This document shows, piece after piece, positions 3,672-50,139 of a stretch of 64,000 nt of DNA. The DNA is from Candidatus Nomurabacteria bacterium (lineage in GTDB: Bacteria > Patescibacteriota > Minisyncoccia > Phycocordibacterales > UBA9973): NCBI GenBank assembly GCA_023267435.1, contig JAHFNH010000001.1, forward strand, positions 16,253 to 80,252. Reading direction: 5' to 3'. Position 1 is the first letter of the stretch. Each line of letters starts with the position of its first letter. Under the pieces are notes generated by a model. The model did no database searches, was not told where the DNA came from, and saw only the letters and a list, made by a program, of their open reading frames with translations. The translations under genes and the position numbers were made by a program.

Positions 3672-3695
3672 AATATAAATTATACCACGATATAA

Positions 3696-3730
3696 CAAAA
3701 AATCCTCTGCCAATGGCGGAGGATTTTTAT
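3696..3730 (-). terminator. terminator of the rpsF-ssb-rpsR operon
   Basis: Stem TCCTCTGCC/GGCGGAGGA with T-run on the minus strand, 14 nt downstream of the rpsR stop. Confidence 0.55.
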
Positions 3731-4011: not shown

Positions 4012-4464
4012 TTAAAATGGAATGTCTTCAGGGTTTATATCTTCTTCTGGATATTCAATAGTATCGATCTCTTCTGGTCCAGGTCCGGCTGGGGCTTTAG
4101 AAGCTTCAGCGTTATTTGATCCTCCACTTGGAGCACCACCTCTTGGTCCAAATTGTGTTCTGTCAGCGACGATTTCAGTACGATATTTTTTTGTACCATC
4201 CTTATCATCCCAACTTCTTGTCTGCATTCTTCCTTCAACCAGCATGGAACTTCCCTTTTTCATATACTGCGCGACTGTCTCTGCTTGGCGTCCGAAGACT
4301 ACGACATTGTGATAATCAGCTGATTCTTGTTTAGCACCATTCTTGTCTTTCCAAACACGATTGGTAGCAAGTGAAAATGAACAAACTTTGATACCTGAAG
4401 GAAGCGATCTTAATTCTGGATCGCGAGTAAGATTTCCTATTACAATTGCTTTGTTTAAATACAT
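4012..4464 (-). CDS. ssb: single-stranded DNA-binding protein
   Basis: OB-fold N-terminus (LNKAIVIGNLTRDPELR), Gly/Pro-rich linker and acidic C-terminal tail ending DIPF. Confidence 0.85.
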   Translation of the reverse strand: MYLNKAIVIGNLTRDPELRSLPSGIKVCSFSLATNRVWKDKNGAKQESADYHNVVVFGRQAETVAQYMKKGSSMLVEGRMQTRSWDDKDGTKKYRTEIVADRTQFGPRGGAPSGGSNNAEASKAPAGPGPEEIDTIEYPEEDINPEDIPF

Positions 4465-14841: not shown

Positions 14842-15423
14842 TTAAAGGTGTGTTTCCTTTAGTGCTTTATTTATTTCGGATAAAATATGAGTTCGATTTT
14901 TGGAAACTTCAAACATCAACTCGTCTTCAAACGGAGATTTGACCAGAGTTTTTAAATCTTCGCCTCCGCCGATATAACCCAAATTATCCAGAATGCGCAA
15001 AACAATCACCATCTCAATATTGCGCAATTCTTCCATTGTCTCAGTTTTTTCTAAAATAAAAAATCCTTTCAATAAATCTGCGAACAATTCCGGGTTGGAA
15101 TCTTCCCCTGCCAGTAAGCGTTTTAGCAGTTTAGAAATCTTTTCCATTATTTCTAAAGTCTCCGGTCTTTTCGATAGACTTTCAAGCTCGTTTGTTTTAG
15201 ATGCACTCGTGATGCGCCAAAAATCTTTTCCACGCACGAAATCAACTTTCACATAAGAAAAATCTTGCAGGACAAAACGAAGCTTCGAAGATATTTTTCG
15301 AACTCCCTGCGCTGAAGCATGGATCATTCCCAAGTCACGAGTAAAAACAGAATAATATTTCCCCGCTTCTCCGAAATTCCTACTCCCTAAAATTATTCCT
15401 TCTGTATGATAAATGTGGTGCAT
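14842..15423 (-). CDS. recO: DNA repair protein RecO-like (short)
   Basis: N-terminal OB pattern EGIILGSRNFGEAGKYYSVFTRDLGMIHASAQGVRK. Confidence 0.55.
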   Translation of the reverse strand: MHHIYHTEGIILGSRNFGEAGKYYSVFTRDLGMIHASAQGVRKISSKLRFVLQDFSYVKVDFVRGKDFWRITSASKTNELESLSKRPETLEIMEKISKLLKRLLAGEDSNPELFADLLKGFFILEKTETMEELRNIEMVIVLRILDNLGYIGGGEDLKTLVKSPFEDELMFEVSKNRTHILSEINKALKETHL

Positions 15424-19300: not shown

Positions 19301-19914
19301 TCTTTTATATCTTTATAACCTTGCGCCAATTCATGCGAAGAAAGAGCTGTTCCGCAACGAGGACACCAAGGCAAAACTTTGTAATCCTTGTATAAAAGTT
19401 TTTTATCATCGACTGTTTTAACAACATTCCAAACTGACTCCATAAAATGTTTATCATAAGTAACATATGGATTCTCTTTATCGATCCAGTATCCTGTACG
19501 GTCAGTAAATTGTTCCCACACATCTATGTGCTTCCAAACACTTTCTTTACACTTCTTATTAAATGCTTCTATGCCGTAAACTTCAATTTCTTTTTTAGAT
19601 TTTAAGCCAAGTTCCTTTTCAACTTTTAACTCAACAGGCAAACCGTGAGTGTCCCATCCTCCTTTGCGTCGCACATGATAACCACGCATTGTTTTATATC
19701 GAGGCAAAGCATCTTTAAAACACCTTGGTTCAAGATGGTGAATACCGGGCATACCGTTCGCAGTTGGCGGGCCATCATAAAAAACGAACTCACCGCTCGG
19801 TGCTGGTTTTTTTAAAGATTTATTAAAAATATCTTTTTCTTTCCAAAATTCTAAAACTCGCTCTTCACGGAGCGCAGACTCACTTTTATTACTTATTTCT
19901 TTGTTTTCAGCCAT
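16384..19914 (-). CDS. ileS: isoleucyl-tRNA synthetase (type 2, Thermus/eukaryote-like) carrying an inserted histidine-phosphatase (PGAM-like) domain
   Basis: PPTANGMPGIHH (HIGH region, noncanonical), CP1 editing region, WAISRERYWGTPLPIW, KMSKSIGN. Between the two Cys pairs of the zinc knuckle (VCDLCTDRH ... ELDLHRPFIDDVKLVCTHAKAGQVCGG) lies an insertion of about 200 aa with RHGQSESN, SPFMRTRETIE and LILSHG motifs. Confidence 0.85.
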   Translation of the reverse strand: MAENKEISNKSESALREERVLEFWKEKDIFNKSLKKPAPSGEFVFYDGPPTANGMPGIHHLEPRCFKDALPRYKTMRGYHVRRKGGWDTHGLPVELKVEKELGLKSKKEIEVYGIEAFNKKCKESVWKHIDVWEQFTDRTGYWIDKENPYVTYDKHFMESVWNVVKTVDDKKLLYKDYKVLPWCPRCGTALSSHELAQGYKDIKELSVFVKFKIIGEENTFVLAWTTTPWTLPGNVGLAVGEDINYVKVKQGEEFLILAEARLDVLVGEYEIVSKMKGKDLLGLEYEPLYPFLKDNISGAEKEKLGNAFKIYPADFVTTVDGTGVVHTAVMYGADDFELGTKIGLPKFHLVGEDGNFLKFAGFLAGKFVKDEETAVEIIKDLAHRGLLLKKEKYEHNYPHCWRCQTPLIYFARDSWYINMSSLREDLMKENEKINWEPAYIREGRFGEWLREVKDWAISRERYWGTPLPIWVCDLCTDRHIVGSIDDLKQKVIKSGNKYFVMRHGQSESNVKDNLHGVVCSRVEDIDHLTEQGKAQALQAVESLKDEKIDLVFVSPFMRTRETIEILKDKLGYKDEQIIFDKRLSEIDAGDFEGKNWNEYKNIFKDANERFFSAKHKGESLLDVKNRMMSFVYELEEKYKNKNILILSHGSPLWMLFAGACGYSGDESISMTGGSFRHSEEIEKGVFGSFKHFTNAEVRELSFVPLPHNENYELDLHRPFIDDVKLVCTHAKAGQVCGGEMKRVKEVMDVWFDSGAMPFAQDHYPFENKEWVEGAGYPADFISEAIDQTRGWFYTLLAVGVLMGRGTPYKNVICLGHILDKEGKKMSKSIGNVVDPWTAMDKYGVDTLRLWMYSVNQPGESKNFDERTVNETHRQVFGLLYNVLAFYELYRDTYLEQDVKDLKSGNILDQWILARLDELTTLVTEKMDNYKLLESVRAIKDFIDDLSTWYVRRSRDRIKEGDADAKQTLYFVLKNIAKLMAPFAPFSADDIWLKLKNEHDEESVHLSHWPVANEINFDVIANMAEIRKVVSLGLEARQKAGMKVRQPLAKIEVKEYKLGAPYSEVIKDELNVKEIVENSGLETEVSLDINITPELKEEGDYREFVRGVQDMRKKSGLTPSDVISLSIETSEEGKKLIEKFEVDLKKTVLASKIEFVTNEGEEIKVDVLAFKIKIQK

Positions 19915-21445: not shown

Positions 21446-23134
21446 TTACATTCTCTCCGGAGCTTGGATACCTAAAAGATGCAAACCATTTTTTATTATG
21501 ATTTGTGTTGCGCGAGCTATAGCTAAACGATGTTCTGAAACTTCCTTATTTTTTTCATCAATTATTTGATTGTCACCGTAAAAAGAATTAAAACCATGAG
21601 CAACTTCAATAACATAAGTCACAATATATTGCGGAGCGTATTCTGTAATTGCACGCTCGACTATTTCAGGAAAACGATATAACATTTTTTCAATATCCAA
21701 AATATCTTGAGCATGATAGTTTGGAGACATTCCTAATCCTGACCCTTTTTCAATCAAGCTTTGAATACGGGCATGGGTGTATTGTAAGTATGGGCCAGAA
21801 TCCCCTTCAAAAGACAAAGATGTATCTGGATCAAAATTAATATTCTGACCTGGCTTCGTGCGAAGAATTGTAAACTTTATTGCACCAATAGCTACAGCTT
21901 CAGCATTTTCACGTATATCAGCTACACGATCTTTTGTTCTTTCAGAAACTTCACCTAAAACAAGATCAATCATCTCAGTCGCAAGGGGCACGCCACCTAA
22001 TCGAGACGACATCTTTTGTCCCTTGTAACTCATACGTCCATGAGGGACATGAATACTGTTTTTTACCCACTCAGGATTTATTTTTTCTGCAGCATCGAGC
22101 ACAATATTGAAATGTGGAATTTGTTCGGTGTCAGTAATAAAAATAGAAATATTCGGATTCACACGCTCGAATTTTAATTTCAATAATCCTAAATCTTTAG
22201 CTTCATAAGTCGGATTACCTTGGCTATTTATAAAGACAGCTGTGTTTAAATTCTTTTTAGCTTCATCTGGAATATAAACAACAGCACCTTCGCTCTCAGT
22301 GAAAACTGCTGGAGTATTTTTCCCTACAATTTCCTTCCCTGCTATACCCGCCTCACTCTCGTATATATATGAATCAAAATGAGAACCAAGTCTCTTTGTA
22401 ATTGATTCAAAGTATTCAATATTGAATTTCTTACATACTTCATAAACCTTCAATTCTGGAGAACCTTTGCCAACATATAGATTATCCGCAATTTCTTTCA
22501 CGCGTTCATGAATTGATTCATCATCTGTAAATCTTTTTGTACCTTCCACATAAGCGTCACCTAATACTGCAATATCATTCGGGGTAAAATCTGCACCGTA
22601 TTTTTCCAAAATAATAAAAACTGCTTTGGCTACACCGAGAGAAATATCTGAAGGAAAAGACATTGTTTTCACTTCTGCACCGGAGAACTTCATAATTTGG
22701 ACCATTGATTCCCCTATTGTATTGTTCATCATATGCCCAATATGAAAAGGCTTGAATAAATTTGGAGAAGAATGTTCCACTAAAACTTTTTTTCCTTTTA
22801 GTGATTCTACTTTCCCAAAATTATCTTTTGTATTTAAAATTTCTTTAGTTGAATCTGCAAAAAATTCCGGTGCTAAATAAAAATTTATAAATCCCGCACC
22901 CGCAACATCAATTTTATTTATTTTACTGTCAAGGTTCAACCTTGACAGTTGGTCAACAATTTTCTGAGCCAATTCTTTCGGATTGGTTTTTTCTCTTTTA
23001 GAGAGAACCATAGCAACATTTGTGGAATAATCCCCCATCTTCAAATCTGCTGGATGTTCCACAGTAAAATCAACCTCTTCTATATTGAGATTTTTTAACG
23101 CTTCTATAATTAAATTTTTTATTTTATATTCCAT
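21446..23134 (-). CDS. argS: arginyl-tRNA synthetase
   Basis: HSSPNLFKPFHIGHMMN (HIGH), DALR anticodon-binding C-terminus ending ...APERM. Confidence 0.85.
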   Translation of the reverse strand: MEYKIKNLIIEALKNLNIEEVDFTVEHPADLKMGDYSTNVAMVLSKREKTNPKELAQKIVDQLSRLNLDSKINKIDVAGAGFINFYLAPEFFADSTKEILNTKDNFGKVESLKGKKVLVEHSSPNLFKPFHIGHMMNNTIGESMVQIMKFSGAEVKTMSFPSDISLGVAKAVFIILEKYGADFTPNDIAVLGDAYVEGTKRFTDDESIHERVKEIADNLYVGKGSPELKVYEVCKKFNIEYFESITKRLGSHFDSYIYESEAGIAGKEIVGKNTPAVFTESEGAVVYIPDEAKKNLNTAVFINSQGNPTYEAKDLGLLKLKFERVNPNISIFITDTEQIPHFNIVLDAAEKINPEWVKNSIHVPHGRMSYKGQKMSSRLGGVPLATEMIDLVLGEVSERTKDRVADIRENAEAVAIGAIKFTILRTKPGQNINFDPDTSLSFEGDSGPYLQYTHARIQSLIEKGSGLGMSPNYHAQDILDIEKMLYRFPEIVERAITEYAPQYIVTYVIEVAHGFNSFYGDNQIIDEKNKEVSEHRLAIARATQIIIKNGLHLLGIQAPERM

Positions 23135-23556
23135 TACTTTTTTCCTGTTGATCCAAACCTCCCTTCTCCACGAACCGATTCACTCAATATATCAGTTTCC
23201 TCTAATTCTGCAATGATTACAGGATAAATTATCAGCTGGCTAACTTTATCTCCTACTTCAACAGTATAAGGTTTATCTGATAAATTTACTAAATGAGTAT
23301 TGTATTCTCCACGATAACCAGCATCGTAAACCCCTCCCATAGTATGAAGTCCCAATTTTGAAATACTACCTTTGTCTTTAACAATACCCGCATAACCTTC
23401 TTCAAATTCCGTTGCAAATCCGTGCCAAAATATATGGTGTCCCATTGAGGGAATAGTCACAGCTTCCATTGAAAACAAATCCATCCCCACATCTCCTGGA
23501 TGGGCATAGCTTGGTAACTTTACATTTTCTTTTAATTTTTTAATTTTTAATTGCAT
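23134..23556 (-). CDS. dut: dUTP diphosphatase
   Basis: Motifs AHPGDVGMDL and RGEGRFGSTG. Confidence 0.85.
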   Translation of the reverse strand: MQLKIKKLKENVKLPSYAHPGDVGMDLFSMEAVTIPSMGHHIFWHGFATEFEEGYAGIVKDKGSISKLGLHTMGGVYDAGYRGEYNTHLVNLSDKPYTVEVGDKVSQLIIYPVIIAELEETDILSESVRGEGRFGSTGKK

Positions 23557-23559
23557 GAA

Positions 23560-24252
23560 TTATTTCTTAATTACTTTTTTAACTTCTAAATAAACATCTT
23601 TATGAATATCTTCTCTAGTGCGCATATTATTGCCTTTTACACAAGATATTTTTACAAAATTATTTAATTCTTTAATAAGTTTCAAGGCGCTCTTACGAGA
23701 ATTTTCCAAGAAAACAGGATCATTCTCGTGAACATCACCCTTACGTCTTAAATATTGGCGAACATTTTTTGCATCACGTTCTATCATTAACTTTTGAGTA
23801 ATTTTTATCGGAACTTCTAAATAAAGAACAATGTCTGGACGTGGAATACCAAAAACTTTATATTCCATATCATCAAGCCAACGTAAAAAATCTTTTCTTT
23901 TTTTTGCGTCTGTTATTTTTCCACCTTGATGTATTTGATTAGCTGAAACATAACGATTTGCAATTACAACATTTCCTGATTTAAGCCATTTAGAAATCTG
24001 CTCGGAGGACTCCCATCTATCGGCGGCATACAAAACTGAAGCTATTTTAGGGTGAACTTTAACAAAGTTAAAATATTGTTCTCGTAAACAATGACCAATA
24101 AATTGACCGAAGAAGTTTTTGTAATACTCTGGAAAATCAACAGTTTTAACTTTAAAACCTTCCTTCACAAGACGCGCTCTCAAGAGTTCAACCTGTGTTG
24201 CCTTTCCGCTTCCATCTGTACCATCTATTACTATTAGTTTTCCTTTTTTCAT
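23560..24252 (-). CDS. tmk: thymidylate kinase
   Basis: P-loop IVIDGTDGSGKATQ. Confidence 0.8.
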   Translation of the reverse strand: MKKGKLIVIDGTDGSGKATQVELLRARLVKEGFKVKTVDFPEYYKNFFGQFIGHCLREQYFNFVKVHPKIASVLYAADRWESSEQISKWLKSGNVVIANRYVSANQIHQGGKITDAKKRKDFLRWLDDMEYKVFGIPRPDIVLYLEVPIKITQKLMIERDAKNVRQYLRRKGDVHENDPVFLENSRKSALKLIKELNNFVKISCVKGNNMRTREDIHKDVYLEVKKVIKK

Positions 24253-24253
24253 A

Positions 24254-25453
24254 TTATTTTTTAGCTCTTAAAATCTTATCCATTTTTTGTGCAATTTTAA
24301 TCATGTCTTTTTCTTTTTTACCACGAGTGGTTTCTGCGCAAGTGCCAAGTCGAATACCAGAAGGATCCATCACACTGCGTGTATCTCCTGGAATAGTGTT
24401 CATATTTACAATAATCCCTGCTTTTTCAAGCTTAATACTTGCCTCCTTACCGGAAACACCAGATCCATTCATAAAGGTATCCATAAGTATTAGGTGTGAA
24501 TCTGTGCCACCAGAAATAATATGCCATCCTAATATTTTTAATTCGTTCGCTAGTGTCTTAGCATTCTTTACTACTTGCTTCGCATATTTTTTGAAATCAG
24601 GTTTCATTGCTTCGCCTAACGCAATAGCAACACCTGCAATATTGTTTTCATGTGGTCCACCAAAAAGTCCTGGGATAACCATCTTGTCTAATTTTTTATC
24701 AAACTCTCGTGCATCTTTTTTTACAAAAAGAATTGCTTGTCTTGGTCCACGCAGAGACTTGTGAGTGGTAGTCATCACACTATCTGCATAAGGAAACGGT
24801 GTTGGATAAACTCCTCCAGCCACGAGTCCTGCAAAGTGTGACATGTCGACATGTAGTAACGCTCCCTTCCGTCCGTCAGGGTAAACCACAGCATCGGCAA
24901 TTTCTCTAAACTTTTTAAAATCAACAACTCTAGGGTATGCGGTAAAACCAGCTACGATAATATCTGGCTTTTCTTGAACTGCAAGATTTTTTAATTTATC
25001 GTAATCAATAACTTCAGTCGCACCATCGAGTTCAAATTGAATTGGTTTCCAAAGTTTACCAGTCATAGATAATGGGTGTCCGTGTGTAAGGTGTCCACCA
25101 GAAGTTAATTTCATTCCCATTATTTTTCCACCGATTGGAACCAGGGCAGAATACAAAGCAAAGTTTGCTGGAGAACCGGAAAGAAGCTGAACATTTGCAT
25201 GCCATTCTGTGTCTTTTAATTTAAAAAGTTTTAAAGCTCGTTCAATGCAAAGAGTTTCTACTTTGTCGATAATCTGATTGCCACCATAGTATCTCCTGCC
25301 TGGATAACCTTCGGCATATTTATTTGTAAGTTCCGAACCGAGCGCTTGTAAAACATCTTTTGAAACGTAGTTCTCAGATGCGATTAAGTTAGTAACACTC
25401 TTCTGCCTTTTGGCTTCTAGTTTGATAAGCTTCTCAATTTGTTTATCTTTCAT
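24254..25453 (-). CDS. glyA: serine hydroxymethyltransferase
   Basis: LIASENYVSKDVLQALGS, PLP-lysine region TTTHKSLRGPR. Confidence 0.9.
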   Translation of the reverse strand: MKDKQIEKLIKLEAKRQKSVTNLIASENYVSKDVLQALGSELTNKYAEGYPGRRYYGGNQIIDKVETLCIERALKLFKLKDTEWHANVQLLSGSPANFALYSALVPIGGKIMGMKLTSGGHLTHGHPLSMTGKLWKPIQFELDGATEVIDYDKLKNLAVQEKPDIIVAGFTAYPRVVDFKKFREIADAVVYPDGRKGALLHVDMSHFAGLVAGGVYPTPFPYADSVMTTTHKSLRGPRQAILFVKKDAREFDKKLDKMVIPGLFGGPHENNIAGVAIALGEAMKPDFKKYAKQVVKNAKTLANELKILGWHIISGGTDSHLILMDTFMNGSGVSGKEASIKLEKAGIIVNMNTIPGDTRSVMDPSGIRLGTCAETTRGKKEKDMIKIAQKMDKILRAKK

Positions 25454-25483: not shown

Positions 25484-26344
25484 TCAAAACCCGAAATTAA
25501 GCTTGTCACCATTGGATTTTACAACAATAGTGCCAAGCAAGTCCGTCCTAAAAATCTTGGCACCTATCTGCTTTAATATATCTAAAGTTTCTGGATGTGG
25601 ATGACCGTAAGTATTACCTTTGCCATCTGAGATGAGTGCGTATGTTGGCGAAACGGCTTGCACGAATTCTAAAGAACTAGAACCACGAGAACCATGATGC
25701 CCGACTTTCAAAATATCACTCTGTAATTCGCTTGAAGAAAAATCTCCTAATATTATTTTTTCGGTTAATTTTGTCGCATCGCCTGTCAGCATTACCGAAG
25801 TCTTGCCATAAGATAATCGTGCCACTACTGAGCCATCGTTCGTCTTCCAACTCGACACATCACGATCAGGAAATAAAATATCGAGCACTGCTCCCTCGCC
25901 CAGATCGAGACGCATTCCTTTTTTTACTAAAAGATTTGGGATATTTTTATTTTGTATTTGTGTTTCTAAATCTTTAAAAGTTTTTGAATTGCTCACTGTA
26001 CCGGAACTAAAAACTTCACCCACTTGATAATTTTTCAAGACATCTAAAAACCCTCCAATATGATCTGCATCAGGATTTGTAATAATTACCGCATCTATTT
26101 TTTTATCAAAAGGATTCATCACACGAGAAAGTGGACTGAGTATTTTTCGAGCTGGGCCACCGTCCACCAAGATTTGCGTGCCAGTCGGTGACTCTATAAA
26201 AAGTGCATCCCCTTGTCCAACATCCAGCATCGCAAAAGTCAGCTGACGATGTTCGTTTTGCCAAATAAGCTGAAAGATAAAAATATTCACTAAAATAAGA
26301 GCTAAAACACACAAAGGTAAGTAATATTTTTTGTTATTCTCCAT
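25484..26344 (-). CDS. ComEC/Rec2-type metallo-beta-lactamase domain protein (C-terminal part of ComEC as a separate gene) with N-terminal TM anchor
   Basis: LDVGQGDALFIESP, HxDxDHIGG (NPDADHIGG), KVGHHGSRGSS, NTYGHPH. Confidence 0.8.
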   Translation of the reverse strand: MENNKKYYLPLCVLALILVNIFIFQLIWQNEHRQLTFAMLDVGQGDALFIESPTGTQILVDGGPARKILSPLSRVMNPFDKKIDAVIITNPDADHIGGFLDVLKNYQVGEVFSSGTVSNSKTFKDLETQIQNKNIPNLLVKKGMRLDLGEGAVLDILFPDRDVSSWKTNDGSVVARLSYGKTSVMLTGDATKLTEKIILGDFSSSELQSDILKVGHHGSRGSSSLEFVQAVSPTYALISDGKGNTYGHPHPETLDILKQIGAKIFRTDLLGTIVVKSNGDKLNFGF

Positions 26345-26345
26345 C

Positions 26346-26354
26346 GTGCTATAA
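26346..26354 (+). promoter_or_regulatory. candidate extended -10 (TGcTATAAT) for the SOD gene
   Basis: cgTGcTATAATttt lies about 50 nt upstream of the probable start at 26404. Confidence 0.35.
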
Positions 26355-26379
26355 TTTTAACATATCAATTAATAAATTC

Positions 26380-27009
26380 GTGGTGACACGAAACAGAAAA
26401 ATTATGAAAAAATTTGAAGAAATGAAATTCAATATTGGAGAATTAAAAGGAATATCGGCCAAGAATGTCGAAGAGCATTTGAAGCTTTATGCTGGTTATG
26501 TAAAAAACACAAATGGAGTTATCGAAAAAATAAGCTACTTGAGTGAAGGAATGTTTAAAAATGGAGAAGACAACGCTTATCTAATAGCTGAACTCTTCCG
26601 TCGTTTTTCTTTCGAATACAATGGTATGAGAAACCACGAAGTGTATTTCAATTCCCTATCTGGTGGAGCAAAAGCATTGAATCCTGAAAGTGAACTAGCA
26701 AAAAAAATAAACGAAGACTGCATGTCTCTAGAGATATTTCTTATGGGATTTAAGAACTTAGCACTGACTCGTGGTGTCGGCTGGGCAGTACTTTGGTATG
26801 ATAAAAAGGACAATAGACTCCTTGCTTCATGGGTAGATGAACAACATCTTGGTCAATTAAATGGTTGTGAAATGATTTTAGCTATCGATATGTGGGAACA
26901 TGCTTTCGTGTATGACTACCCCACTTCTGAAAAGAAAAAGTATGTAGAAGCATTTTTTGAGAATCTAAACTGGGAAAATGTTGAAAACAATTTCATAAAA
27001 GCCAAGTAA
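26380..27009 (+). CDS. Fe/Mn-family superoxide dismutase
   Basis: Aligns to FeSOD: ISAKNVEEHLKLYAGYV (His26-equivalent), NHEVYFNSL (His73), GVGWAVLW, DMWEHAFVYDY (Asp/His ligands). Probable true start is MKKFEEM at 26404. Confidence 0.75.
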   Translation: MVTRNRKIMKKFEEMKFNIGELKGISAKNVEEHLKLYAGYVKNTNGVIEKISYLSEGMFKNGEDNAYLIAELFRRFSFEYNGMRNHEVYFNSLSGGAKALNPESELAKKINEDCMSLEIFLMGFKNLALTRGVGWAVLWYDKKDNRLLASWVDEQHLGQLNGCEMILAIDMWEHAFVYDYPTSEKKKYVEAFFENLNWENVENNFIKAK

Positions 27010-27029
27010 GAAAAGTATTTTAGAAAAAA

Positions 27030-27088
27030 CCATAATATAAAAGTTTTCGCCTGCGGGTACTGGCTGCGTCTTACCCGCCAGAAAATTT
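27030..27088. terminator. bidirectional composite terminator between convergent SOD and comEC genes
   Basis: Outer stem CCATAATAT/ATATTATGG encloses inner stem GCGGGTA/TACCCGC, with A-run and T-run flanks. Confidence 0.55.
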
Positions 27089-27094
27089 TTGATA

Positions 27095-28585
27095 TTATGG
27101 TTTTTTAGTTTCTGTAAAAAATTCTTTTATATTATCACCAAAAATAAAGTAAATAAAATATAAATAAATACCAATAGTTAAAACCAAAGGAAAATTTGGT
27201 ATAGTAAATGCTGCGAAATTTAAGTGTGAAAGGAAACCAATCATAAACAATTCATAGTGTAAAAATAAATATGAAACATATCCAAACGGAATAGAAAGTA
27301 CTGGTAAAATAAGACCAACAAAGCCAGTGATAAAACCGAGCATCATAGTAAATGGTATAAAAGGAAGAATTAAAACATTTGCTGGCAGAGCTACGAGCGA
27401 CAGATTACCCATCTTGTAAAGAATAAAAGGAAAGACAAAAATATACGCTGCGCAAGTCACGGTAATAATATCCCGCAAACCGAAACGATCTGTAATCCAT
27501 TGAAAATGTTTCTCTATTTTAGGCGCTAGGAATATCACTGCTACAGTCGCAATAAATGAAAGTTGGAAAGATACATCAAAGACCAAAAGAAAAGGATTGA
27601 TTAAAACCATTAAAACACCCGCCATGATAAGGGCGCGCGCGACATCATAGTTTCTCCCTGTCGCGCGCGCTACAAGTGCTAGGGTTGCCATTATCCCCGC
27701 TCGCAAAGCCGTCGAGCTTCCACCAGTCATCAACACGAATAAAAGAATAGAAAATATACCCACACCGATACCTAAATTTCTAGGCAGAAAACCAAAGAGT
27801 TTCATAATCCATTCAGCAACAATAGTCACATTATAACCAGACAAAGCTACGATATGTATCGTGCCAGTATCTACGAAACTCTGTCGGAGTGCCTGATCAA
27901 AAGAAGACTTCTCCCCTAGTATCAATCCACCCATCAATAAATTCTCCGGGTCCGGTATTGCATAAGATAATTTTTCTAAAAACTTTTCTTTAACTGCAAA
28001 TAGTGTGCTTTTTATTTTACTGCCATTCCCAGATGAGACCACTTCTATTTTCGGGTATTTAACTACAAATAAAATACCGTCTTTGCGCAGATAATTTATA
28101 TAATCAAATTCCTTGCCTTGGTCAGTCACAAAGTTTTCTGGTTTTTCTAAGACTCCGGAGAAATTTATCTCATCACCGTATTTAAAACTATCATCCAGCC
28201 CAGTCGATAATAAAACATCTGTCTTCTCTCCTCTAGACGCAACTTCGACGGTCAAGCTCTGACTATTTTCTTTTTGAGTAACTTCGTCTATTATCAATCC
28301 ACTTAGAGAAACTTTTTGACCGACACTACTTGCCAAAATCGCTTCTGATTTTAAAGAAGCTTGATCAGCCATATGGAATCTAATAATTCCAAATGAAAAA
28401 ACTAAAATAAAAATTGAAGCCAATATCCCCCACTTACTCTTTGAGATAAAAAAGTGAAATAAAAAAATAGCCAAAGAAATGACTATAAGCAAAACAGCAC
28501 TATAAAAATTTATCGAAATAAGAGAACGGAGAAAAACTCCGAAAGTAAAACCAAAACAAATAGTTAGAAAAACCCTCTTCTGCAT
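27095..28585 (-). CDS. comEC: ComEC/Rec2 N-terminal portion (DUF4131 OB domain + competence channel domain), no MBL domain
   Basis: N-terminal TMs plus OB region (VSLSGLIIDEVTQKENSQSLTVEV), competence domain TGTIHIVALSGYNVTIVA, about 10 TM helices. Confidence 0.75.
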   Translation of the reverse strand: MQKRVFLTICFGFTFGVFLRSLISINFYSAVLLIVISLAIFLFHFFISKSKWGILASIFILVFSFGIIRFHMADQASLKSEAILASSVGQKVSLSGLIIDEVTQKENSQSLTVEVASRGEKTDVLLSTGLDDSFKYGDEINFSGVLEKPENFVTDQGKEFDYINYLRKDGILFVVKYPKIEVVSSGNGSKIKSTLFAVKEKFLEKLSYAIPDPENLLMGGLILGEKSSFDQALRQSFVDTGTIHIVALSGYNVTIVAEWIMKLFGFLPRNLGIGVGIFSILLFVLMTGGSSTALRAGIMATLALVARATGRNYDVARALIMAGVLMVLINPFLLVFDVSFQLSFIATVAVIFLAPKIEKHFQWITDRFGLRDIITVTCAAYIFVFPFILYKMGNLSLVALPANVLILPFIPFTMMLGFITGFVGLILPVLSIPFGYVSYLFLHYELFMIGFLSHLNFAAFTIPNFPLVLTIGIYLYFIYFIFGDNIKEFFTETKKP

Positions 28586-28654
28586 TTAAATATTATAGCA
28601 AATAAAAAAGCCTCTCAATAAAAGAGAAGCTTTTTGTGTTTTTAATACTTTTTA

Positions 28655-29080
28655 TTAACCACCCATATGATTAACTATTTTTTTAACTGCATAACTTATA
28701 ACAACAGCATCTTTATTATCAAAACCTCTCTTTCTTGAAAGTACTGTAATATCTAAACAATAGCCCTGTGAAACTTTTTCTGAGAGAAGCATCTTAATTA
28801 ACAAATTTTTTGTATAAGCACAATAAATATTGTACCCACCGCCAATTTTCAGTTTAAGAAGTTTTTCTGAATAAACAGTTGTGGTGTCACTGTTATTTCC
28901 TATTTCCAACACAACACTGGTAACCAGTGATACTGGGTAAACAGTCGTTATCGATGTAGTATCCCAAACATCACCTGATCCATTTCCATTTACTATTTGG
29001 GTAGATGGAGTTATTTCATTATTACAACTTAAAAAAGTTACAATAATAAATATAATTAAAATTATGGCTAATTTTTTCAT
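28655..29080 (-). CDS. hypothetical secreted/lipoprotein-like small protein
   Basis: Signal peptide MKKLAIILIIFIIVTFLSC. Confidence 0.5.
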   Translation of the reverse strand: MKKLAIILIIFIIVTFLSCNNEITPSTQIVNGNGSGDVWDTTSITTVYPVSLVTSVVLEIGNNSDTTTVYSEKLLKLKIGGGYNIYCAYTKNLLIKMLLSEKVSQGYCLDITVLSRKRGFDNKDAVVISYAVKKIVNHMGG

Positions 29081-29269
29081 TTGTCTATTTATTTAATTGT
29101 TAGTAATTTATTTATTAAGTTCTCTCAATCCCCTTAAAGAAACTAAGAGAACTCAATAAAAGCTGACAACTAAATAAAATATCAAAGAGCCGTAACTAGT
29201 AAGAGTATAGCATATTTAATTAGAAAGTCAAGGGGTTAAAAAGCTTTACTAAATAATCCTTAAATAACA

Positions 29270-29297
29270 AAAAATCTCCCAACTTGGGAGATTTTTT
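29270..29297 (-). terminator. terminator directly after rplB (S10 cluster ends here)
   Basis: ATCTCCCAA-CTTGGGAGAT with T-run. Confidence 0.65.
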
Positions 29298-29307
29298 AGT
29301 AAAAATT

Positions 29308-30156
29308 TTATTGACTCTTTCTTGATTTTCCAGTCTTTCGGCGGGAAACGATGAAGACGTTTGAGTATTTCTTTGGAGTTCTTGTCTTTCTTCCTCCAGT
29401 AACTTTACCCCACATAGTCTTTGGTCTCTTTGTACCGCGACCTTGTCTTCCTTCTCCTCCTCCGTATGGGTGATCCACAGGGTTCATGGCTGTACCTCTG
29501 ACTGTAGGACGGATACCTTTCCAGCGACTTCGTCCTGCTTTACCGTAGTTTTCTAAGTGGTGTTCATCGTTTGAAACAGAACCGATAGATGCCCAACATT
29601 CTTCTTTAACTTTTCTAATTTCAGAAGATGGCATCTTTAAGTTGGTGTAACCGTCGGCGTTCGCAACAACTTGAGCAAATACTCCGGCTGATCTTGAAAT
29701 CTTCGCACCACCTTTTGTTTTTATTTCAACATTGTAAACGAATGTTCCAACTGGAATATTTTTCAAAGGCAATCTGTTTCCTGTGGCAAGTTCTGCTTTT
29801 TCGGAAACGATAAATGAATCACCTACTTTAACAGACTTTGGAAGAACAACATATCTCTTCTCTCCGTCTTTATAGACAGCGATACCGATAAAAGCTGATC
29901 TGTTTGGATCGTATTCTACAGAAGTTATTTTTGCAGGAATATCTTTCTTGTCGTATAAGAAATCAACATCTCTGAATAAACGCTTATGTCCGGCGCCCTT
30001 ATGACGAGTGGTGATGCGTCCCTGGCTGTTTCTACCGACAGATCGGCGAAAACCGTGAGTTAAAGATTTTGTTGGTTCAGATTTAGTCAAAACGCCACGG
30101 TAAGTAACGTTGGACATCATTCTTCTGGATTTGGTTGTAGGTTTGTATGTTTTCAT
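29308..30156 (-). CDS. rplB: 50S ribosomal protein L2
   Basis: GRNSQGRITTRHKGAGHKR; C-terminal basic tail. Confidence 0.9.
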   Translation of the reverse strand: MKTYKPTTKSRRMMSNVTYRGVLTKSEPTKSLTHGFRRSVGRNSQGRITTRHKGAGHKRLFRDVDFLYDKKDIPAKITSVEYDPNRSAFIGIAVYKDGEKRYVVLPKSVKVGDSFIVSEKAELATGNRLPLKNIPVGTFVYNVEIKTKGGAKISRSAGVFAQVVANADGYTNLKMPSSEIRKVKEECWASIGSVSNDEHHLENYGKAGRSRWKGIRPTVRGTAMNPVDHPYGGGEGRQGRGTKRPKTMWGKVTGGRKTRTPKKYSNVFIVSRRKTGKSRKSQ

Positions 30157-30162
30157 GGTTTA

Positions 30163-30435
30163 TTAAATAAGTTCTATCTTATCACCCTTTTTCAAATAAA
30201 CAATAGCTTTCTTACCTCCTTGTTTTACACCAGCCTTTCCTTTGGACATGATTTGTTTAGCTGGAATATTTACTATGTTTACTTTTACTGGCTTAACTTT
30301 GTAAAGGGAAAAAATGGCTTTCTTGATTTCGGTCTTATTGGCAGATGCTGTAACATCAAAAGTGTAAACATTTTGCTCGAAGGCAAGTGATGCTTTTTCA
30401 GTAACTCTTGGTTTTTTAATTAATTTCATTGTCAT
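30163..30435 (-). CDS. rplW: 50S ribosomal protein L23
   Basis: Size and position; KPRVTEKA pattern. Confidence 0.8.
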   Translation of the reverse strand: MTMKLIKKPRVTEKASLAFEQNVYTFDVTASANKTEIKKAIFSLYKVKPVKVNIVNIPAKQIMSKGKAGVKQGGKKAIVYLKKGDKIELI

Positions 30436-30447
30436 ATAATTTAAAAA

Positions 30448-31107
30448 TTATCCGCGTGATTCCAAGAATTTAACACTCTCTTCTGGATTTTCTATTAAAA
30501 GGTATTGGTGATTTAATACGTCAAATGGATTTAAGTTTTTAACGAAGACTATTTCAAGCTGAGGTAAATTTCTGAAACTCTTTTCTGTTTTTTCACTGCG
30601 TCCAAATAAAGCTGTTAAAACTTTTGGCTTCTTGGAAGTTGCCAAAGTCTTAATACCAGAACCTTTTGCTAAGTTCTTCATTACATCTACAGCATCCTTT
30701 GTTTTAATACCTGAAGTTGCAAGAGAATCAACAAAAATTATTTCTCCATCTTTAAATTTTCTGGAAAGCACTGAGAAAAGGGCTTGAGCACGCATACTCT
30801 TTGTAATCTTTCTCTTGTAGTTCTTGTCTGAAAGTGGACCGTGTGTGACACCTCCACCAACCCAGATAGGAGAACGAGAAGATCCATGACGAGCACGTCC
30901 TGTTCCTTTTTGTTTCCAAGGCTTCTTTCCTCCTCCACTCACCTCTCCGCGATCTTTCGTGTCAGCTGTACCAGCACGCTTGTTTGAGCGCATACTTTGA
31001 ACAACTTGGTGAACCAAGTCAGAACGCCATTTCGCAGCGAAAACTTTCTCAGGAAGAGTTATCTTTCCGTCAGCTGTGCCTTTTTGGTTGTATATTTTTG
31101 CTTCCAT
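30448..31107 (-). CDS. rplD: 50S ribosomal protein L4
   Basis: Position between rplC and rplW; GTGRARHGS motif. Confidence 0.85.
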   Translation of the reverse strand: MEAKIYNQKGTADGKITLPEKVFAAKWRSDLVHQVVQSMRSNKRAGTADTKDRGEVSGGGKKPWKQKGTGRARHGSSRSPIWVGGGVTHGPLSDKNYKRKITKSMRAQALFSVLSRKFKDGEIIFVDSLATSGIKTKDAVDVMKNLAKGSGIKTLATSKKPKVLTALFGRSEKTEKSFRNLPQLEIVFVKNLNPFDVLNHQYLLIENPEESVKFLESRG

Positions 31108-31115
31108 ATAAATTA

Positions 31116-31730
31116 TTATCTTGAAACTATTTCAATTAATGTTCCACGCTTTCCTGGTATTGCACCCTTGATAAGCATTGTATTGTTATCTTGATCAACA
31201 TACACAACTTTTAAGTTCTTGTAGGTTATACGATCAGATCCCATTCTGCCTGCCATTCTCATTCCTTTTGGAACGTGTGTACGTAGACCTCCTCCGATTG
31301 ATCCTGGCTCTCTTTCAGAATGTTTCTGACCGTGTGAACGAGGACCTCCGTGGAAACCGTGACGCTTCACAACTCCTTGGAAACCTTTACCTTTTGAAAC
31401 TCCTGAAACTTGTAGTTTGTCTCCTGGGGCAAAAGCTGAAACATTAATAACATCACCTTCTTTAGCATTATTTGTATCAGTAGGTTTTAATCTGAATTCT
31501 TTCAAAGTTCTGTAAAGAACTCCTTTCATCTGACCTAAGCGAGGCTTATTTACGCGATGTGCTTTCTGAGTACCGAAACCAACCTGAACAGCATTATAAC
31601 CATCCTTGGCTTTCTCGAAAACTCGAGTTACAGTCACAGGGCCGGCTGAAATAATCGTCACTGGGATGACTGTTCCGTCTTCGGAGAAATACTCCGTCAT
31701 ATTTTCTTTTGTTCCAAGAATAAATTTCAT
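31116..31730 (-). CDS. rplC: 50S ribosomal protein L3
   Basis: VSGVSKGKGFQGVVKRHGFHGGP. Confidence 0.9.
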   Translation of the reverse strand: MKFILGTKENMTEYFSEDGTVIPVTIISAGPVTVTRVFEKAKDGYNAVQVGFGTQKAHRVNKPRLGQMKGVLYRTLKEFRLKPTDTNNAKEGDVINVSAFAPGDKLQVSGVSKGKGFQGVVKRHGFHGGPRSHGQKHSEREPGSIGGGLRTHVPKGMRMAGRMGSDRITYKNLKVVYVDQDNNTMLIKGAIPGKRGTLIEIVSR

Positions 31731-31746
31731 AAATTTTAAATTACTT

Positions 31747-32172
31747 CTATAACATCTTCACATCAATATCAACTCCGGAAGGAAGTGATAAGTTTGTAAG
31801 AGCTTCGATTGTTTTTGCTCCGGGGTTCAATATATCGATCACTCTTTTGTGCACTCTCATTTCAAATTGTTCTCGTGTGTTTTTGTAAACGAAAGATGCA
31901 CGGTTCACTGTATATTTCTTTATTTCAGTTGGAAGAGGTACTGGTCCGACAATAGTCGCATCATAACGCATAGCGGTATCCATGATCTGTTTTACTGACG
32001 CATCCAAGATCTTGCTCTCGTAAGCACGAACTCTGATGCGAAGTATTACCTTGCCGTCTTCTTTCTTTTCTTTAGCTTTAGGAGCTGCTTTCACAGCTTT
32101 TGCCTTTACTGTCTTTGTTGTGACAGTCTTTGCAGCCTTAGGTTTTTTTATTTTTGTTTCTGCTGTTGGCAT
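31747..32172 (-). CDS. rpsJ: 30S ribosomal protein S10 with a Lys/Ala-rich N-terminal extension of about 40 aa
   Basis: KILRIRVRAYESKILDASVKQIMDTA... S10 core preceded by PKAAKTVTTKTVKAKAVKAAPKAKEKK. Confidence 0.85.
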   Translation of the reverse strand: MPTAETKIKKPKAAKTVTTKTVKAKAVKAAPKAKEKKEDGKVILRIRVRAYESKILDASVKQIMDTAMRYDATIVGPVPLPTEIKKYTVNRASFVYKNTREQFEMRVHKRVIDILNPGAKTIEALTNLSLPSGVDIDVKML

Positions 32173-32190
32173 GAACTAATCCTGTTTTAA

Positions 32191-33387
32191 TTAAGCAATA
32201 ATTTTTGTAACAACTCCGGCGCCGACAGTCTTGCCTCCTTCACGGATAGCAAATCTCTGTGACTCTTCGAGTGCGACCGGGGTAACCAATTTAACTGTAA
32301 GTTTTACTGTATCTCCAGGCATAACCATTTCTGTTCCTTCTTCCAAAGTAACATCTCCTGTTACGTCTGTTGTACGGATGTAGAATTGAGGCTTATAACC
32401 TTTGAAGAAAGGAGTGTGACGTCCGCCTTCTTCTTTCTTCAAAACGTATATTTCACAAGTGAAATTGTCATGAGGAGTAACTGTTCCTGGTTTTGAAAGA
32501 ACCTGTCCGCGTGTAATATCTTCCTTTTTCAGACCGCGTAGAAGAATACCAGCATTGTCTCCAGCCATACCTTCTTGCAAGTTCTTGTTGAACATTTCAA
32601 TACCGGTAACTGTTGACTTCATAGTTGGTCTAATACCGACGATTTCGATATCTTCACCAACTTTGATAATACCTCTTTCGATTTTACCAGTAACAACTGT
32701 TCCACGGCCTTCGATTGAGAAGATATCTTCTACAGGCATAAGGAAAGGTTTTGCTGTATCTCTTTCAGGAACTGGGATGTATGTATCAAGAGCGTTTGTA
32801 AGTTCAAGAATTTTTTGTGCCCAAGGATCATCAATAGATGTAGCTTCAAGACCCTTAAGAGCTGATCCACGAATAACTGGAGCGTTTGCACCATCAAAGC
32901 CTTGCTTTGTTAGAAGTTCACGGATTTCTTCTTCAACCATGTCGATCATATCTTTATCATCAACCATATCGCACTTGTTTAAGAAAACAATAATCTTTGG
33001 AACACCAACTTGTTTTGCAAGCAAAACGTGTTCGCGTGTCTGAGGCATAGCACCGTCAGTAGCGGCAACCACAAGGATAGCACCGTCCATTTGAGCGGCA
33101 CCAGTAATCATGTTCTTGATATAGTCGGCGTGTCCTGGAGCATCGATGTGCGCGTAGTGACGTGCATCAGTCGCATACTCGTTGTGAGAAATGTTAATGG
33201 TGATTCCACGAGCCTTTTCTTCTGGGGCGTTGTCGATCTGACTAACATCACGAAGACGCACTGTTTTACCAGCTAAGTTAAGGACGTTTAATATTGCCGC
33301 GGTTAAAGTAGTCTTACCGTGGTCAACGTGACCGATAGTACCTACGTTTACGTGTGGCTTATCTCTTTTAAATTCTTCTGCTGCCAT
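32191..33387 (-). CDS. tuf: elongation factor Tu
   Basis: [26 protein letters not shown]. Confidence 0.95.
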
Positions 33388-48796: not shown

Positions 48797-49273
48797 TTAT
48801 TTATCTTTTTCTTCTAAATAAACATTTCTTATTCCTGATTTTATCATCGCATCCCAACAGGGTTTACAACACCACCAATGACCCCATAAATATAAATCAC
48901 ACCCAGAAACATTGATTTTAGATTTCTTAGCTTTAGCCATAGCAAAACTTTCAGCGTGGTATTTATGTGAAGCACATCCTGGACAAAGCCAATACTTCTC
49001 TCCAGATGGGATTCTAAAAAATTTCCTGATACACCATCTTGGATGAGTTTCCAAAAGAAATTTATTTTTAATTGCTGATTGATTGGCTGCACTAACCACA
49101 ACATTGCCATTATTATCAACCACAACAGCTCCTGTTGAAGTTTTTTTGTCTGTGGATTGTGTTTGAGCTACTTCTTTTGCGATGAGCATGTATTTATTAT
49201 CTGCTGGAACATGTAAAATAGTTCTACCTTCAGGTAGGTAAGGATATTTAATGTTTTTTTCTGTATTTTGCAT
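48797..49273 (-). CDS. dCMP/cytidine deaminase family zinc enzyme
   Basis: HAE (YHAESFAM) and PCxxC (CKPCWDAM) zinc-binding motifs. Confidence 0.7.
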   Translation of the reverse strand: MQNTEKNIKYPYLPEGRTILHVPADNKYMLIAKEVAQTQSTDKKTSTGAVVVDNNGNVVVSAANQSAIKNKFLLETHPRWCIRKFFRIPSGEKYWLCPGCASHKYHAESFAMAKAKKSKINVSGCDLYLWGHWWCCKPCWDAMIKSGIRNVYLEEKDK

Positions 49274-49302
49274 AACGTTCTAATTTTTGTATACTTTATC
49301 AC

Positions 49303-50136: not shown

Positions 50137-50139
50137 TTT

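What the first reader, a model, noticed from the sequence alone, without database searches (positions are those of the whole stretch)
25484..28585. ComEC split into two genes by an opposite-strand Fe/Mn superoxide dismutase gene
The N-terminal two-thirds of ComEC (OB/DUF4131 + competence channel, 27095..28585) and the C-terminal metallo-beta-lactamase nuclease domain (25484..26344, with its own TM anchor and start codon) are separate minus-strand genes 750 nt apart. A plus-strand SOD gene (26380..27009), ending in a composite bidirectional terminator, lies between them. ComEC is normally one polypeptide in which the MBL domain is thought to degrade the non-transforming strand during uptake. 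A natural split with an intervening gene implies either a two-subunit ComEC or a decayed competence system. The MBL half retains all metal-binding motifs, and the channel half retains the competence-domain signature.
Basis: partly seen in the sequence, partly recalled or inferred. Interest (0 to 1): 0.55.

Follow-up and report, generated by a model that had tools for sequence, protein, structure and literature searches.

The report
Two-gene ComEC with SOD between
The DNA-uptake protein ComEC is really encoded here as two separate genes (channel and membrane-anchored nuclease) with a superoxide dismutase gene between them, but this is the conserved, selected, normal arrangement of a whole group of ultra-small (CPR/Patescibacteria) bacteria, not a broken gene or a one-off oddity.

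Summary
A 496-aa gene (27095..28585, -) carries the OB/DUF4131 and competence domains. A 286-aa gene (25484..26344, -) carries one TM helix and the MBL nuclease domain. A Fe/Mn SOD gene on the + strand lies between them. The two products match residues 10-470 and 514-788 of a solved 801-aa ComEC. The break falls in a Lys-rich hydrophilic loop between two TM helices.

It is not an artefact, not decay and not genome-specific. None of 80 related species genomes has a fused gene. 64 show the same complete N–SOD–MBL order. 9 have the halves directly abutting or overlapping as two ORFs. dN/dS is 0.05-0.15 for both halves, like ArgS. Stand-alone ~290-aa TM+MBL proteins recur across CPR lineages (Berkelbacteria, Pacebacteria, Moranbacteria, Portnoybacteria), with various genes between the halves.

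The best reading is an ancient gene fission giving a two-subunit ComEC, with SOD as an old passenger insertion.

Corrections: SOD most likely starts at ATG 26404, and MBL motif II reads N-x-D-x-D-H, not H-x-D-x-D-H.

Published work already notes that the ComEC–MBL fusion is absent in CPR. I found no description of the conserved partner gene.

The parts
27095..28585 (-). comEC channel subunit (496 aa): three N-terminal TM helices, OB fold/DUF4131, competence (channel) domain. It ends in a Lys-rich cytoplasmic tail (…GDNIKEFFTETKKP).
   Evidence: ORF. Pfam DUF4131 and Competence. TIGR00361 positions 71-364. Aligns to 30bt_A residues 10-470. About 490-505-aa homologs at 65-84% identity. dN/dS 0.07-0.14.
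27024..27106 (.). Long hairpin of about 33 bp (AT-rich outer stem, GC-rich inner stem) flanked by A6 and T6 runs, between the convergent comEC-N and sod genes. It is an inferred bidirectional terminator. Its right arm overlaps the last three codons and the stop codon of comEC-N.
   Evidence: Sequence. RNA folds give dG -37.7 (z -6.3) and -29.4 (z -4.4). The arm is not repeated elsewhere in the window beyond chance. About 20 relatives have comparable structured spacers, while about 36 others have overlapping 3' ends. Terminator function is inferred, not shown.
26404..27009 (+). Fe/Mn superoxide dismutase (201 aa from ATG 26404; the mechanical ORF starts at GTG 26380).
   Evidence: Pfam Sod_Fe_C E=3e-21. 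Best solved match is 1coj, a superoxide dismutase entry, E=5e-25 over residues 21-208. Ligands H33, H86, D170 and H174 are invariant in 70 relatives. dN/dS 0.04-0.17. Start inferred from relatives and the Logan gene call.
26345..26403 (.). 59-nt divergent intergenic region between the start codons of the MBL gene and sod. It contains TGCTATAAT (26347..26355, + strand; reads as an extended -10) and a small hairpin at 26377..26392.
   Evidence: Sequence. The hairpin is listed as terminator-like on the - strand. Reading these as promoters is inference from the sequence only. In 22 relatives the two start codons are only 14 nt apart.
25484..26344 (-). comEC nuclease subunit (286 aa): short Lys-rich cytoplasmic N-terminus, one TM helix (about residues 8-28), then an extracytoplasmic MBL-fold nuclease domain of the ComEC C-terminal type.
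   Evidence: ORF. Lactamase_B. TIGR00361 positions 410-661. Aligns to 30bt_A 514-788 and 9ic4 (ComEC nuclease domain), E about 1e-35. The model matches 9ic4 at TM 0.84. Hydropathy peak of 2.35 at the TM helix. About 8000 homologs, the best 120 all 274-301 aa. dN/dS 0.05-0.15.
21446..25453 (-). Co-directional, tightly packed downstream genes glyA (SHMT), tmk, dut and argS, headed by the MBL gene. This is conserved context, probably one transcription unit.
   Evidence: ORFs (gaps of 30, 1 and 3 nt, then a 1-nt overlap). Pfam hits. The same order occurs in 76, 67, 57 and 65 of 80 species genomes. Co-transcription is inferred.
28605..29080 (-). Lineage-specific lipoprotein-like ORF (28655..29080, 141 aa) followed by a terminator-like hairpin (28605..28635), inserted between rplB and comEC-N.
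   Evidence: ORF. Weak lipoprotein signal-peptide match. Terminator-like site. It is absent from the closest relative L002, where rplB is followed directly by comEC-N.

Best explanation
This is a functional two-gene ComEC produced by an ancient gene fission. Gene 1 makes the DNA channel with its extracytoplasmic OB fold. Gene 2 makes the extracytoplasmic MBL-fold nuclease, held in the membrane by the TM helix that connects channel and nuclease in single-chain ComECs. The cut lies in the cytoplasmic loop before that helix, so both products can insert with their ancestral topology. Inferred mechanism: the nuclease subunit's TM helix and ectodomain dock onto the channel subunit. The nuclease degrades one DNA strand outside while the other strand is threaded through the channel, as proposed for single-chain ComEC. 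The imported DNA would serve transformation, nucleotide supply or both. Once the two halves were independent genes, the space between them was free to accept other genes. In this family a Fe/Mn SOD gene landed there in the opposite orientation long ago and has mostly stayed, as a passenger rather than a part of the machine. In this window each half must have its own promoter, because the intervening gene is on the other strand and is followed by a strong hairpin. The nuclease gene heads a glyA-tmk-dut-argS cluster.
For: Shown:
- The halves are complementary to one ComEC.
- The break lies in a hydrophilic Lys-rich loop (KD -1.6) between two hydrophobic helices (KD 1.6 and 2.35).
- 0 of 80 related species genomes have a fused gene. 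64 have the complete N-SOD-MBL order. 9 have the halves as adjacent ORFs with gaps of 1-109 nt or overlaps of 8 or 17 nt.
- Both halves have 66% median identity to the window's proteins, higher than SHMT (53%) and ArgS (43%).
- dN/dS is 0.07-0.14 for the channel half and 0.05-0.15 for the nuclease half.
- The catalytic residues D92, D94, H95, D189, H216, H217 and H248 are invariant or nearly so.
- About 140 of the best 150 representatives at 50% clustering are stand-alone proteins of 270-300 aa.
- Distant split lineages (38-47% identity) keep the same break point, with an overlap of 32 nt, SOD, a hypothetical gene, or DedA plus peptidase S49 between the halves.
- Stand-alone forms are named from Berkelbacteria, Pacebacteria, Moranbacteria and Portnoybacteria.
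- The artificially re-fused sequence, given an unpaired block alignment, yields a confident model (pLDDT 91.7, pTM 0.74) that dips only at residues 481-530 around the break.
- Its nuclease domain matches the solved ComEC nuclease domain 9ic4 at TM 0.84.

Literature:
- The ComEC C-terminal domain is a Mn-dependent nuclease important for transformation (PMC8579336).
- ComEC is required for transformation in a cultured Saccharibacterium (PMC10633639).
Against: - Physical association of the two products is not shown. The AF2 model was forced into one chain and cannot test assembly.
- In at least one lineage (P0242, L084) no channel gene lies within about 1.9 kb upstream of the nuclease gene, so linkage is not universal.
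- In the window's clade the first His of motif II is Asn (82 of 91 sequences). S. pneumoniae ComEC has the same change among others, and its domain is suspected to be inactive (PMC8579336).
- Whole genomes were not inspected, so a second full-length ComEC elsewhere cannot be formally excluded.
- No expression data are available.
Confidence: 0.7

Rival explanations
1. The membrane-anchored MBL protein works on its own as a cell-surface DNase or phosphodiesterase that feeds nucleotide scavenging. It does not dock onto the channel protein, and the channel imports DNA without a dedicated nuclease partner. This would resemble the separate EndA nuclease of S. pneumoniae.
For: The genes are separate and, in this window, cannot be co-transcribed. 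The spacer between them holds various unrelated genes in different lineages, and in one lineage the genes appear unlinked. The nuclease gene heads a conserved glyA-tmk-dut cluster of thymidylate metabolism. The purified ComEC nuclease domain is active on its own in vitro (PMC8579336).
Against: Where nothing is inserted, the two genes abut or overlap (8, 17 or 32 nt), the pattern typical of translationally coupled subunits. The nuclease keeps exactly the ancestral connecting TM helix and the same break point in all lineages seen. The two families have matching conservation levels. The 2025 NAR study reports that efficient, strand-selective degradation depends on interplay with the OB fold of the channel part (PMC12455585).
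Confidence: 0.2
2. A decaying competence system: comEC was broken by insertion of sod and the fragments are pseudogenes on their way out.
For: Only the superficial appearance of a gene interrupted by another gene. One relative (L063) has a channel gene fragmented across frames.
Against: Both ORFs are intact with their own start codons. dN/dS is 0.05-0.15. The state is conserved in 80 species genomes and far beyond. Genomes without sod still have two ORFs.
Confidence: 0.02
3. The SOD gene is a functional part of the module. Its back-to-back promoter region with the nuclease gene and its convergent overlap with the channel gene would couple DNA uptake to oxidative stress or to Mn/Fe supply.
For: SOD-between is retained in 64 of 80 species genomes and in an outgroup at 45% MBL identity. 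Start codons of sod and the MBL gene are only 14 nt apart in 22 genomes, and the sod and comEC-N 3' ends overlap by exactly 17 nt in 21 genomes. The ComEC nuclease is Mn-dependent (PMC8579336), and this SOD family uses Fe or Mn.
Against: Nine crown-group genomes have lost it, or never had it, and their two comEC genes are unchanged. Other lineages carry unrelated genes in the same place. Tight packing is general in these small genomes. No regulatory element was identified.
Confidence: 0.08

Closest known systems
Single-chain ComEC/Rec2 (NCBIfam TIGR00361; e.g. B. subtilis ComEC, Moorella ComEC, PDB 30bt/9vc6)
   Same: Same three modules in the same order: OB/DUF4131, competence channel, TM helix plus MBL nuclease. 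The two products align colinearly to residues 10-470 and 514-788 of 30bt_A. The nuclease motifs are of the ComEC type, with Asp in motif II and Asn in motif III (PMC8579336).
   Different: It is encoded as two polypeptides cut in a cytoplasmic loop. Neither half reaches the TIGR00361 cut-off alone (91.6 and 140.8 bits against 190). The first His of motif II is Asn in this clade.
'CTD-less' ComEC proteins (competence domain without a fused MBL: the CPR family fam000603 of Méheust et al. 2019; NCBIfam NF045979 MAG0480 family; the ComEC proteins without a CTD counted by Pimentel & Zhang 2018)
   Same: The channel gene here is exactly such a protein. [quoted passage not shown]
   Different: Here the 'missing' domain is not missing. 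It is encoded by a conserved neighbouring gene with its own membrane anchor. I did not find this stated in the papers I could search.
S. pneumoniae ComEC plus the EndA nuclease
   Same: The strand-degrading nuclease is supplied by a polypeptide separate from the channel (PMC8579336).
   Different: The papers describe EndA as a distinct membrane-bound endonuclease that is not part of ComEC. Here the separate nuclease is the ComEC domain itself, detached.
Fe/Mn superoxide dismutase (Pfam PF00081/PF02777; best solved match 1coj)
   Same: Full-length homology (E=5e-25). All four metal ligands are invariant.
   Different: The N-terminal alpha-hairpin domain is divergent (22.7 bits, below the Pfam cut-off of 27). 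The position between two comEC genes is peculiar to this lineage.

Membership tests
ComEC/Rec2 (TIGR00361 equivalog) | Competence (channel) domain PF03772 | tested here: met
   E=3e-49, model positions 1-265 of 270, all within the 496-aa gene.
ComEC/Rec2 (TIGR00361 equivalog) | N-terminal OB fold / DUF4131 | tested here: met
   PF13567 E=2e-15 at 57.3 bits, above the 31.6 cut-off. The model has beta strands at residues 91-184.
ComEC/Rec2 (TIGR00361 equivalog) | C-terminal MBL-fold nuclease domain of the ComEC type | tested here: met
   TIGR00361 positions 410-661. Matches 30bt_A 514-788 and 9ic4 at E about 1e-35. Foldseek TM 0.84 to 9ic4.
ComEC/Rec2 (TIGR00361 equivalog) | All three modules on one polypeptide that scores above the curated cut-off (190 bits) | tested here: not met
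   There are two genes separated by 750 nt and an opposite-strand gene. The scores are 91.6 and 140.8 bits.
ComEC nuclease domain (catalytically competent) | Motif II H-x-D-x-D-H and the other metal ligands (motif I Asp, motif IV bridging Asp, His of motif V) | tested here: inconclusive
   The window has N90-P-D92-A-D94-H95. The Asp and His residues, D189, H216/H217 and H248/H250 are kept. The first His is Asn in 82 of 91 sequences. Distant split forms keep His. Activity cannot be judged from sequence.
Two-subunit (heteromeric) ComEC | Physical association of the two products in the membrane | not testable with these tools
   Only a single-chain AF2 model was possible. There is indirect support from overlapping or abutting genes in lineages without an insert.
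Two-subunit (heteromeric) ComEC | Both genes maintained by selection and co-inherited | tested here: met
   dN/dS is 0.05-0.15 for both. Both are present in every locus where the contig allows (76 of 80). The same break point is seen in lineages down to 38% identity.
Fe/Mn superoxide dismutase | Four metal ligands (His, His, Asp, His) and both domains | tested here: met
   H33, H86, D170 and H174 are invariant in 70 sequences. The C-terminal domain is above cut-off. The N-terminal domain is below the Pfam cut-off but aligns full-length to 1coj.
Intrinsic bidirectional terminator | Stable GC-containing hairpin flanked by an A-tract and a U-tract, ending transcription from both sides | tested here: inconclusive
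   The hairpin and tracts are present and far more stable than shuffles. It was not called by the simple scan. Termination itself is not testable here.

The most novel reading that the evidence does not exclude
Splitting ComEC was adaptive for CPR bacteria. Detaching the nuclease lets the cell set nuclease and channel levels independently, and lets the anchored nuclease also act as a general surface DNase. In this family its gene is wired to thymidylate metabolism (the MBL-glyA-tmk-dut cluster) and shares a back-to-back control region with SOD. DNA uptake would then be primarily a regulated nucleotide-feeding and stress module rather than a transformation device.
Probability: 0.15. Interest if true: 0.65.

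Novelty: new variant of a known kind. Interest (0 to 1): 0.42.

Why it matters
ComEC specialists list as an open question how the non-transported DNA strand is removed in the many organisms whose ComEC 'lacks' the nuclease domain (PMC8579336). For CPR/Patescibacteria, a large share of bacterial diversity, the answer suggested here is simple. The domain is not lacking. It is a separate, membrane-anchored, strongly conserved gene product, usually encoded beside the channel gene. That changes how competence potential should be scored in metagenome surveys, where both genes should be counted. It predicts that the nuclease can work in trans. It also marks a natural, evolution-tested split site, which could help expression and structural work on a protein that is notoriously hard to produce. 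The SOD gene between the halves is a useful synteny marker for this family, but it is probably not part of the mechanism.

Tried and rejected
- **Assembly artefact:** rejected. The arrangement is identical in independent assemblies and in 64 other species genomes.
- **Pseudogenisation:** rejected by intact ORFs and dN/dS. The apparent early stop in L012 coincides with a masked run of N. L063 may be a real pseudogene or a product of long-read indel errors.
- **Fusion by frameshift or read-through in relatives without SOD:** rejected. Those loci have ordinary stop and start codons with small gaps or overlaps, and the ORFs are separate in all 9 cases.
- **Hairpin as a repeated mobile element:** there is no further copy in the window beyond chance.
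- **Single-sequence AF2 of the re-fused protein:** useless (pLDDT 40).
- **Deciding whether adjacent or SOD-between is ancestral:** the NJ tree shows SOD in an outgroup and scattered no-SOD tips. That fits several losses or recombination, but the tree is too crude to decide.
- **Literature searches for an explicit description of the two-gene ComEC:** none found.
- **Other competence genes (ComEA, ComFC, DprA) in the window:** none among the ORFs scanned.
Full report
**What is in the sequence**

The 496-aa product of 27095..28585 (- strand) carries DUF4131/OB (E=2e-15) and the Competence channel domain (E=3e-49). The 286-aa product of 25484..26344 (- strand) carries a metallo-beta-lactamase domain. 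Between them, on the + strand, is a Fe/Mn superoxide dismutase gene.

The NCBIfam ComEC/Rec2 model is hit at positions 71-364 by the first protein and 410-661 by the second. Against a solved 801-aa ComEC (30bt_A), the first aligns to residues 10-470 and the second to residues 514-788. The second alignment includes the transmembrane helix that precedes the nuclease domain. Together the two genes therefore encode one complete ComEC, cut once.

Hydropathy places the cut in a Lys-rich hydrophilic loop (19-residue mean -1.6). That loop lies between the last hydrophobic helix of the channel gene (1.6) and the single helix of the nuclease gene (2.35). This fits a cytoplasmic loop, which would leave both products able to insert with the ancestral topology. 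The topology itself is inferred.

**Corrections to the observation**

- **SOD start.** Relatives align to the SOD only from residue 9 of the GTG-initiated ORF, and an independent gene call gives 201 aa. The start is therefore most likely ATG 26404.
- **SOD integrity.** The SOD is credible. Its best solved match is the superoxide dismutase entry 1coj (E=5e-25). The four metal ligands H33, H86, D170 and H174 are invariant in 70 relatives.
- **Nuclease motifs.** The nuclease does not keep all canonical ligands. ComEC motif II is H-x-D-x-D-H (PMC12455585), and here it is N90-P-D92-A-D94-H95. The Asn is present in 82 of 91 sequences. Those 82 all belong to the close Nomurabacteria-type relatives (L002–L080) plus the window. 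L081 and all the distant split forms keep His. All other ligands are invariant or nearly so.
- **Hairpin.** The long hairpin at 27024..27106 between the convergent genes is real and very stable (z -6.3 and -4.4 against shuffles). It is flanked by A6 and T6 runs. Its role as a bidirectional terminator is a reasonable inference, not a result.

**Not an artefact and not decay**

The same gene order occurs on independent ENA and Logan contigs. A scan of one genome per species found 366 relatives of the nuclease gene, and the best 80 loci were fetched. I mapped the window's proteins onto them and extended ORFs.

| State across the 80 loci | Loci |
|---|---|
| Fused gene | 0 |
| Channel gene, opposite-strand SOD, nuclease gene, all complete | 64 |
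| Same order, but channel gene incomplete: cut by the contig end (L022, L030) or fragmented across frames (L063) | 3 |
| SOD and nuclease gene present, channel gene not seen (contig end or N runs) | 4 |
| No SOD, the two halves side by side as two ORFs | 9 |

In the 9 loci without SOD, the gaps are 1, 1, 3, 4, 12, 30 and 109 nt, and two loci have overlaps of 8 and 17 nt.

Both halves have 66% median identity to the window's proteins. That is more than the flanking SHMT (53%) and ArgS (43%). Pairwise dN/dS is 0.07-0.14 for the channel gene and 0.05-0.15 for the nuclease gene, against 0.06-0.08 for ArgS. These are genes under strong purifying selection.

**How old and how wide the split is**

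Homolog searches with either half return only proteins of the split size. In a library clustered at 50% identity, about 140 of the best 150 matches to the nuclease gene are stand-alone proteins of 270-300 aa at 38-58% identity. Only three are fused ComECs of 740-818 aa. The one fused example I inspected sits among genes that do not look like a CPR genome.

Contigs of distant stand-alone members show the same break point with different spacers:

| Member | Identity to the window's MBL | Between the halves |
|---|---|---|
| P0404 | 38% | nothing; the channel and nuclease genes overlap by 32 nt |
| P0392 | 47% | SOD, opposite strand |
| P0397 | 42% | a 121-aa hypothetical gene |
| P0292 | 39% | a DedA gene plus a peptidase S49 gene |
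| P0242 | 52% | no channel gene within about 1.9 kb upstream |

Source names on stand-alone members include Berkelbacteria, Pacebacteria, Moranbacteria, Portnoybacteria and Nomurabacteria. The fission is therefore ancient and CPR-wide.

The SOD insertion is also old. It is present in an outgroup at 45% nuclease identity, and the no-SOD genomes are scattered in a rough tree. I could not decide between repeated loss and recombination.

**How it most likely works**

*Shown:* two intact, co-conserved genes that together equal one ComEC, a cut in a hydrophilic loop, and a nuclease half that carries the connecting TM helix.

*Inferred:* the nuclease subunit docks through that helix and its ectodomain onto the channel subunit. 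It then degrades the non-transported strand outside the membrane, as proposed for single-chain ComEC (PMC8579336, PMC12455585).

The abutting or overlapping gene pairs in lineages without an insert are what one expects of co-translated subunits. An AlphaFold2 model of the artificially re-fused sequence, built with an unpaired block alignment, is confident (pLDDT 91.7, pTM 0.74). Confidence dips only at residues 481-530 around the break. Its nuclease domain superimposes on the solved ComEC nuclease domain (9ic4, TM 0.84). Because the model is a single chain, it cannot prove assembly.

In this window the halves cannot share a transcript. An opposite-strand gene and a strong hairpin lie between them. 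The nuclease gene is also the first of a tightly packed glyA-tmk-dut-argS cluster, and that order is conserved in most of the 80 genomes.

**Rival explanations**

- **Free-standing nuclease.** The main rival is that the anchored nuclease acts alone as a surface DNase for nucleotide scavenging. I give it about 0.2.
- **SOD as a functional part.** This is not excluded, given the tight geometry. Start codons are 14 nt apart in 22 genomes, and the 3' ends overlap by exactly 17 nt in 21 genomes. It is unlikely, because nine genomes do without SOD and other lineages hold unrelated genes at the same place.
- **Decay and artefact.** Both are refuted.

**What is known and what is new**

Méheust et al. 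2019 already reported that a ComEC family is present in 86% of CPR genomes and that the MBL-fused version is essentially absent from CPR (PMC6744442). Silale et al. 2021 call the fate of the second strand in ComECs without the C-terminal domain an open question (PMC8579336). Database annotators label both halves 'ComEC/Rec2 family'.

In the papers I could search, I found no statement that the domain persists as a conserved, membrane-anchored partner gene beside the channel gene. I also found none about the SOD insertion.

I therefore file this as a new variant of a known kind. It is still a useful point for the ComEC field.

Noticed in passing
window 48797..50634 and 23134..25453: The window encodes a complete thymidylate set: dCMP deaminase, ThyA and DHFR at 48.8-50.6 kb, and SHMT, Tmk and Dut directly downstream of the ComEC nuclease gene. 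The order MBL-SHMT-Tmk-Dut-ArgS is kept in 76, 67, 57 and 65 of 80 related species genomes. This hints at a link between the nuclease and deoxynucleotide metabolism.
   Followed up: partly
window 28605..33387: The tuf-S10-L3-L4-L23-L2 ribosomal cluster stops after rplB (29308..30156). Instead of rpsS it is followed by a lineage-specific lipoprotein-like ORF (28655..29080), a terminator-like hairpin (28605..28635) and then comEC-N. Only the window and its closest relative L002 have rplB upstream of comEC-N.
   Followed up: partly
L003, L008, L009 and 18 other loci (e.g. L003:7331-7347): In 21 relatives the stop-codon regions of comEC-N and sod overlap by exactly 17 nt (20, 26 or 32 nt in others). 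In 22 relatives the sod and MBL start codons are only 14 nt apart. Promoters and terminators must therefore lie inside neighbouring coding sequence. The window instead has an 85-nt hairpin spacer and a 59-nt divergent gap.
   Followed up: partly
window 16384..19914 (-): A 1176-aa class I aminoacyl-tRNA synthetase has a histidine-phosphatase (His_Phos_1) Pfam hit lying between two tRNA-synt_1 hits, according to the precomputed annotation of the matching ENA contig. This may be a domain insertion.
   Followed up: no
window 25484..26344, residue 90; L081-L091: The His-to-Asn change at the first position of MBL motif II is fixed in the close Nomurabacteria-type relatives and the window (82 of 91 sequences). 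L081 and the distant split lineages keep His (HPDxDH or HPHADH). It may mark a change in metal use or activity.
   Followed up: partly
L063:5809-7088: The channel gene of one relative (a long-read assembly) is split across several frames, while its nuclease gene is intact. This is either a real pseudogene or the result of indel errors.
   Followed up: no
P0243 (721 aa) and cluster members P0410, P0412: The third-best representative hit to the nuclease gene is a 721-aa protein with the MBL domain at residues 328-574, named 'beta-lactamase superfamily II metal-dependent hydrolase'. Its architecture is neither stand-alone nor ComEC-fused.
   Followed up: no
L082:321-4670, L090:3877-6840: In other CPR lineages the space between the two comEC halves holds unrelated genes: DedA/VTT plus peptidase S49 in one, a 121-aa hypothetical gene in another. 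RecJ and RNase H genes lie just upstream of the channel gene in two lineages.
   Followed up: partly
window 585..3713, 4012..4464, 12893..14821, 14842..15423, 43512..45980, 55381..56985, 61269..62282: There are several large probable surface proteins: 1042 aa with Gly_rich_2 and fn3, 642 aa with DUF11, and 822 aa with CarboxypepD_reg. DNA-handling genes are also present (SSB, RecO, a Pif1-like helicase, PilM). No ComEA, ComFC or DprA was found among the ORFs scanned.
   Followed up: no
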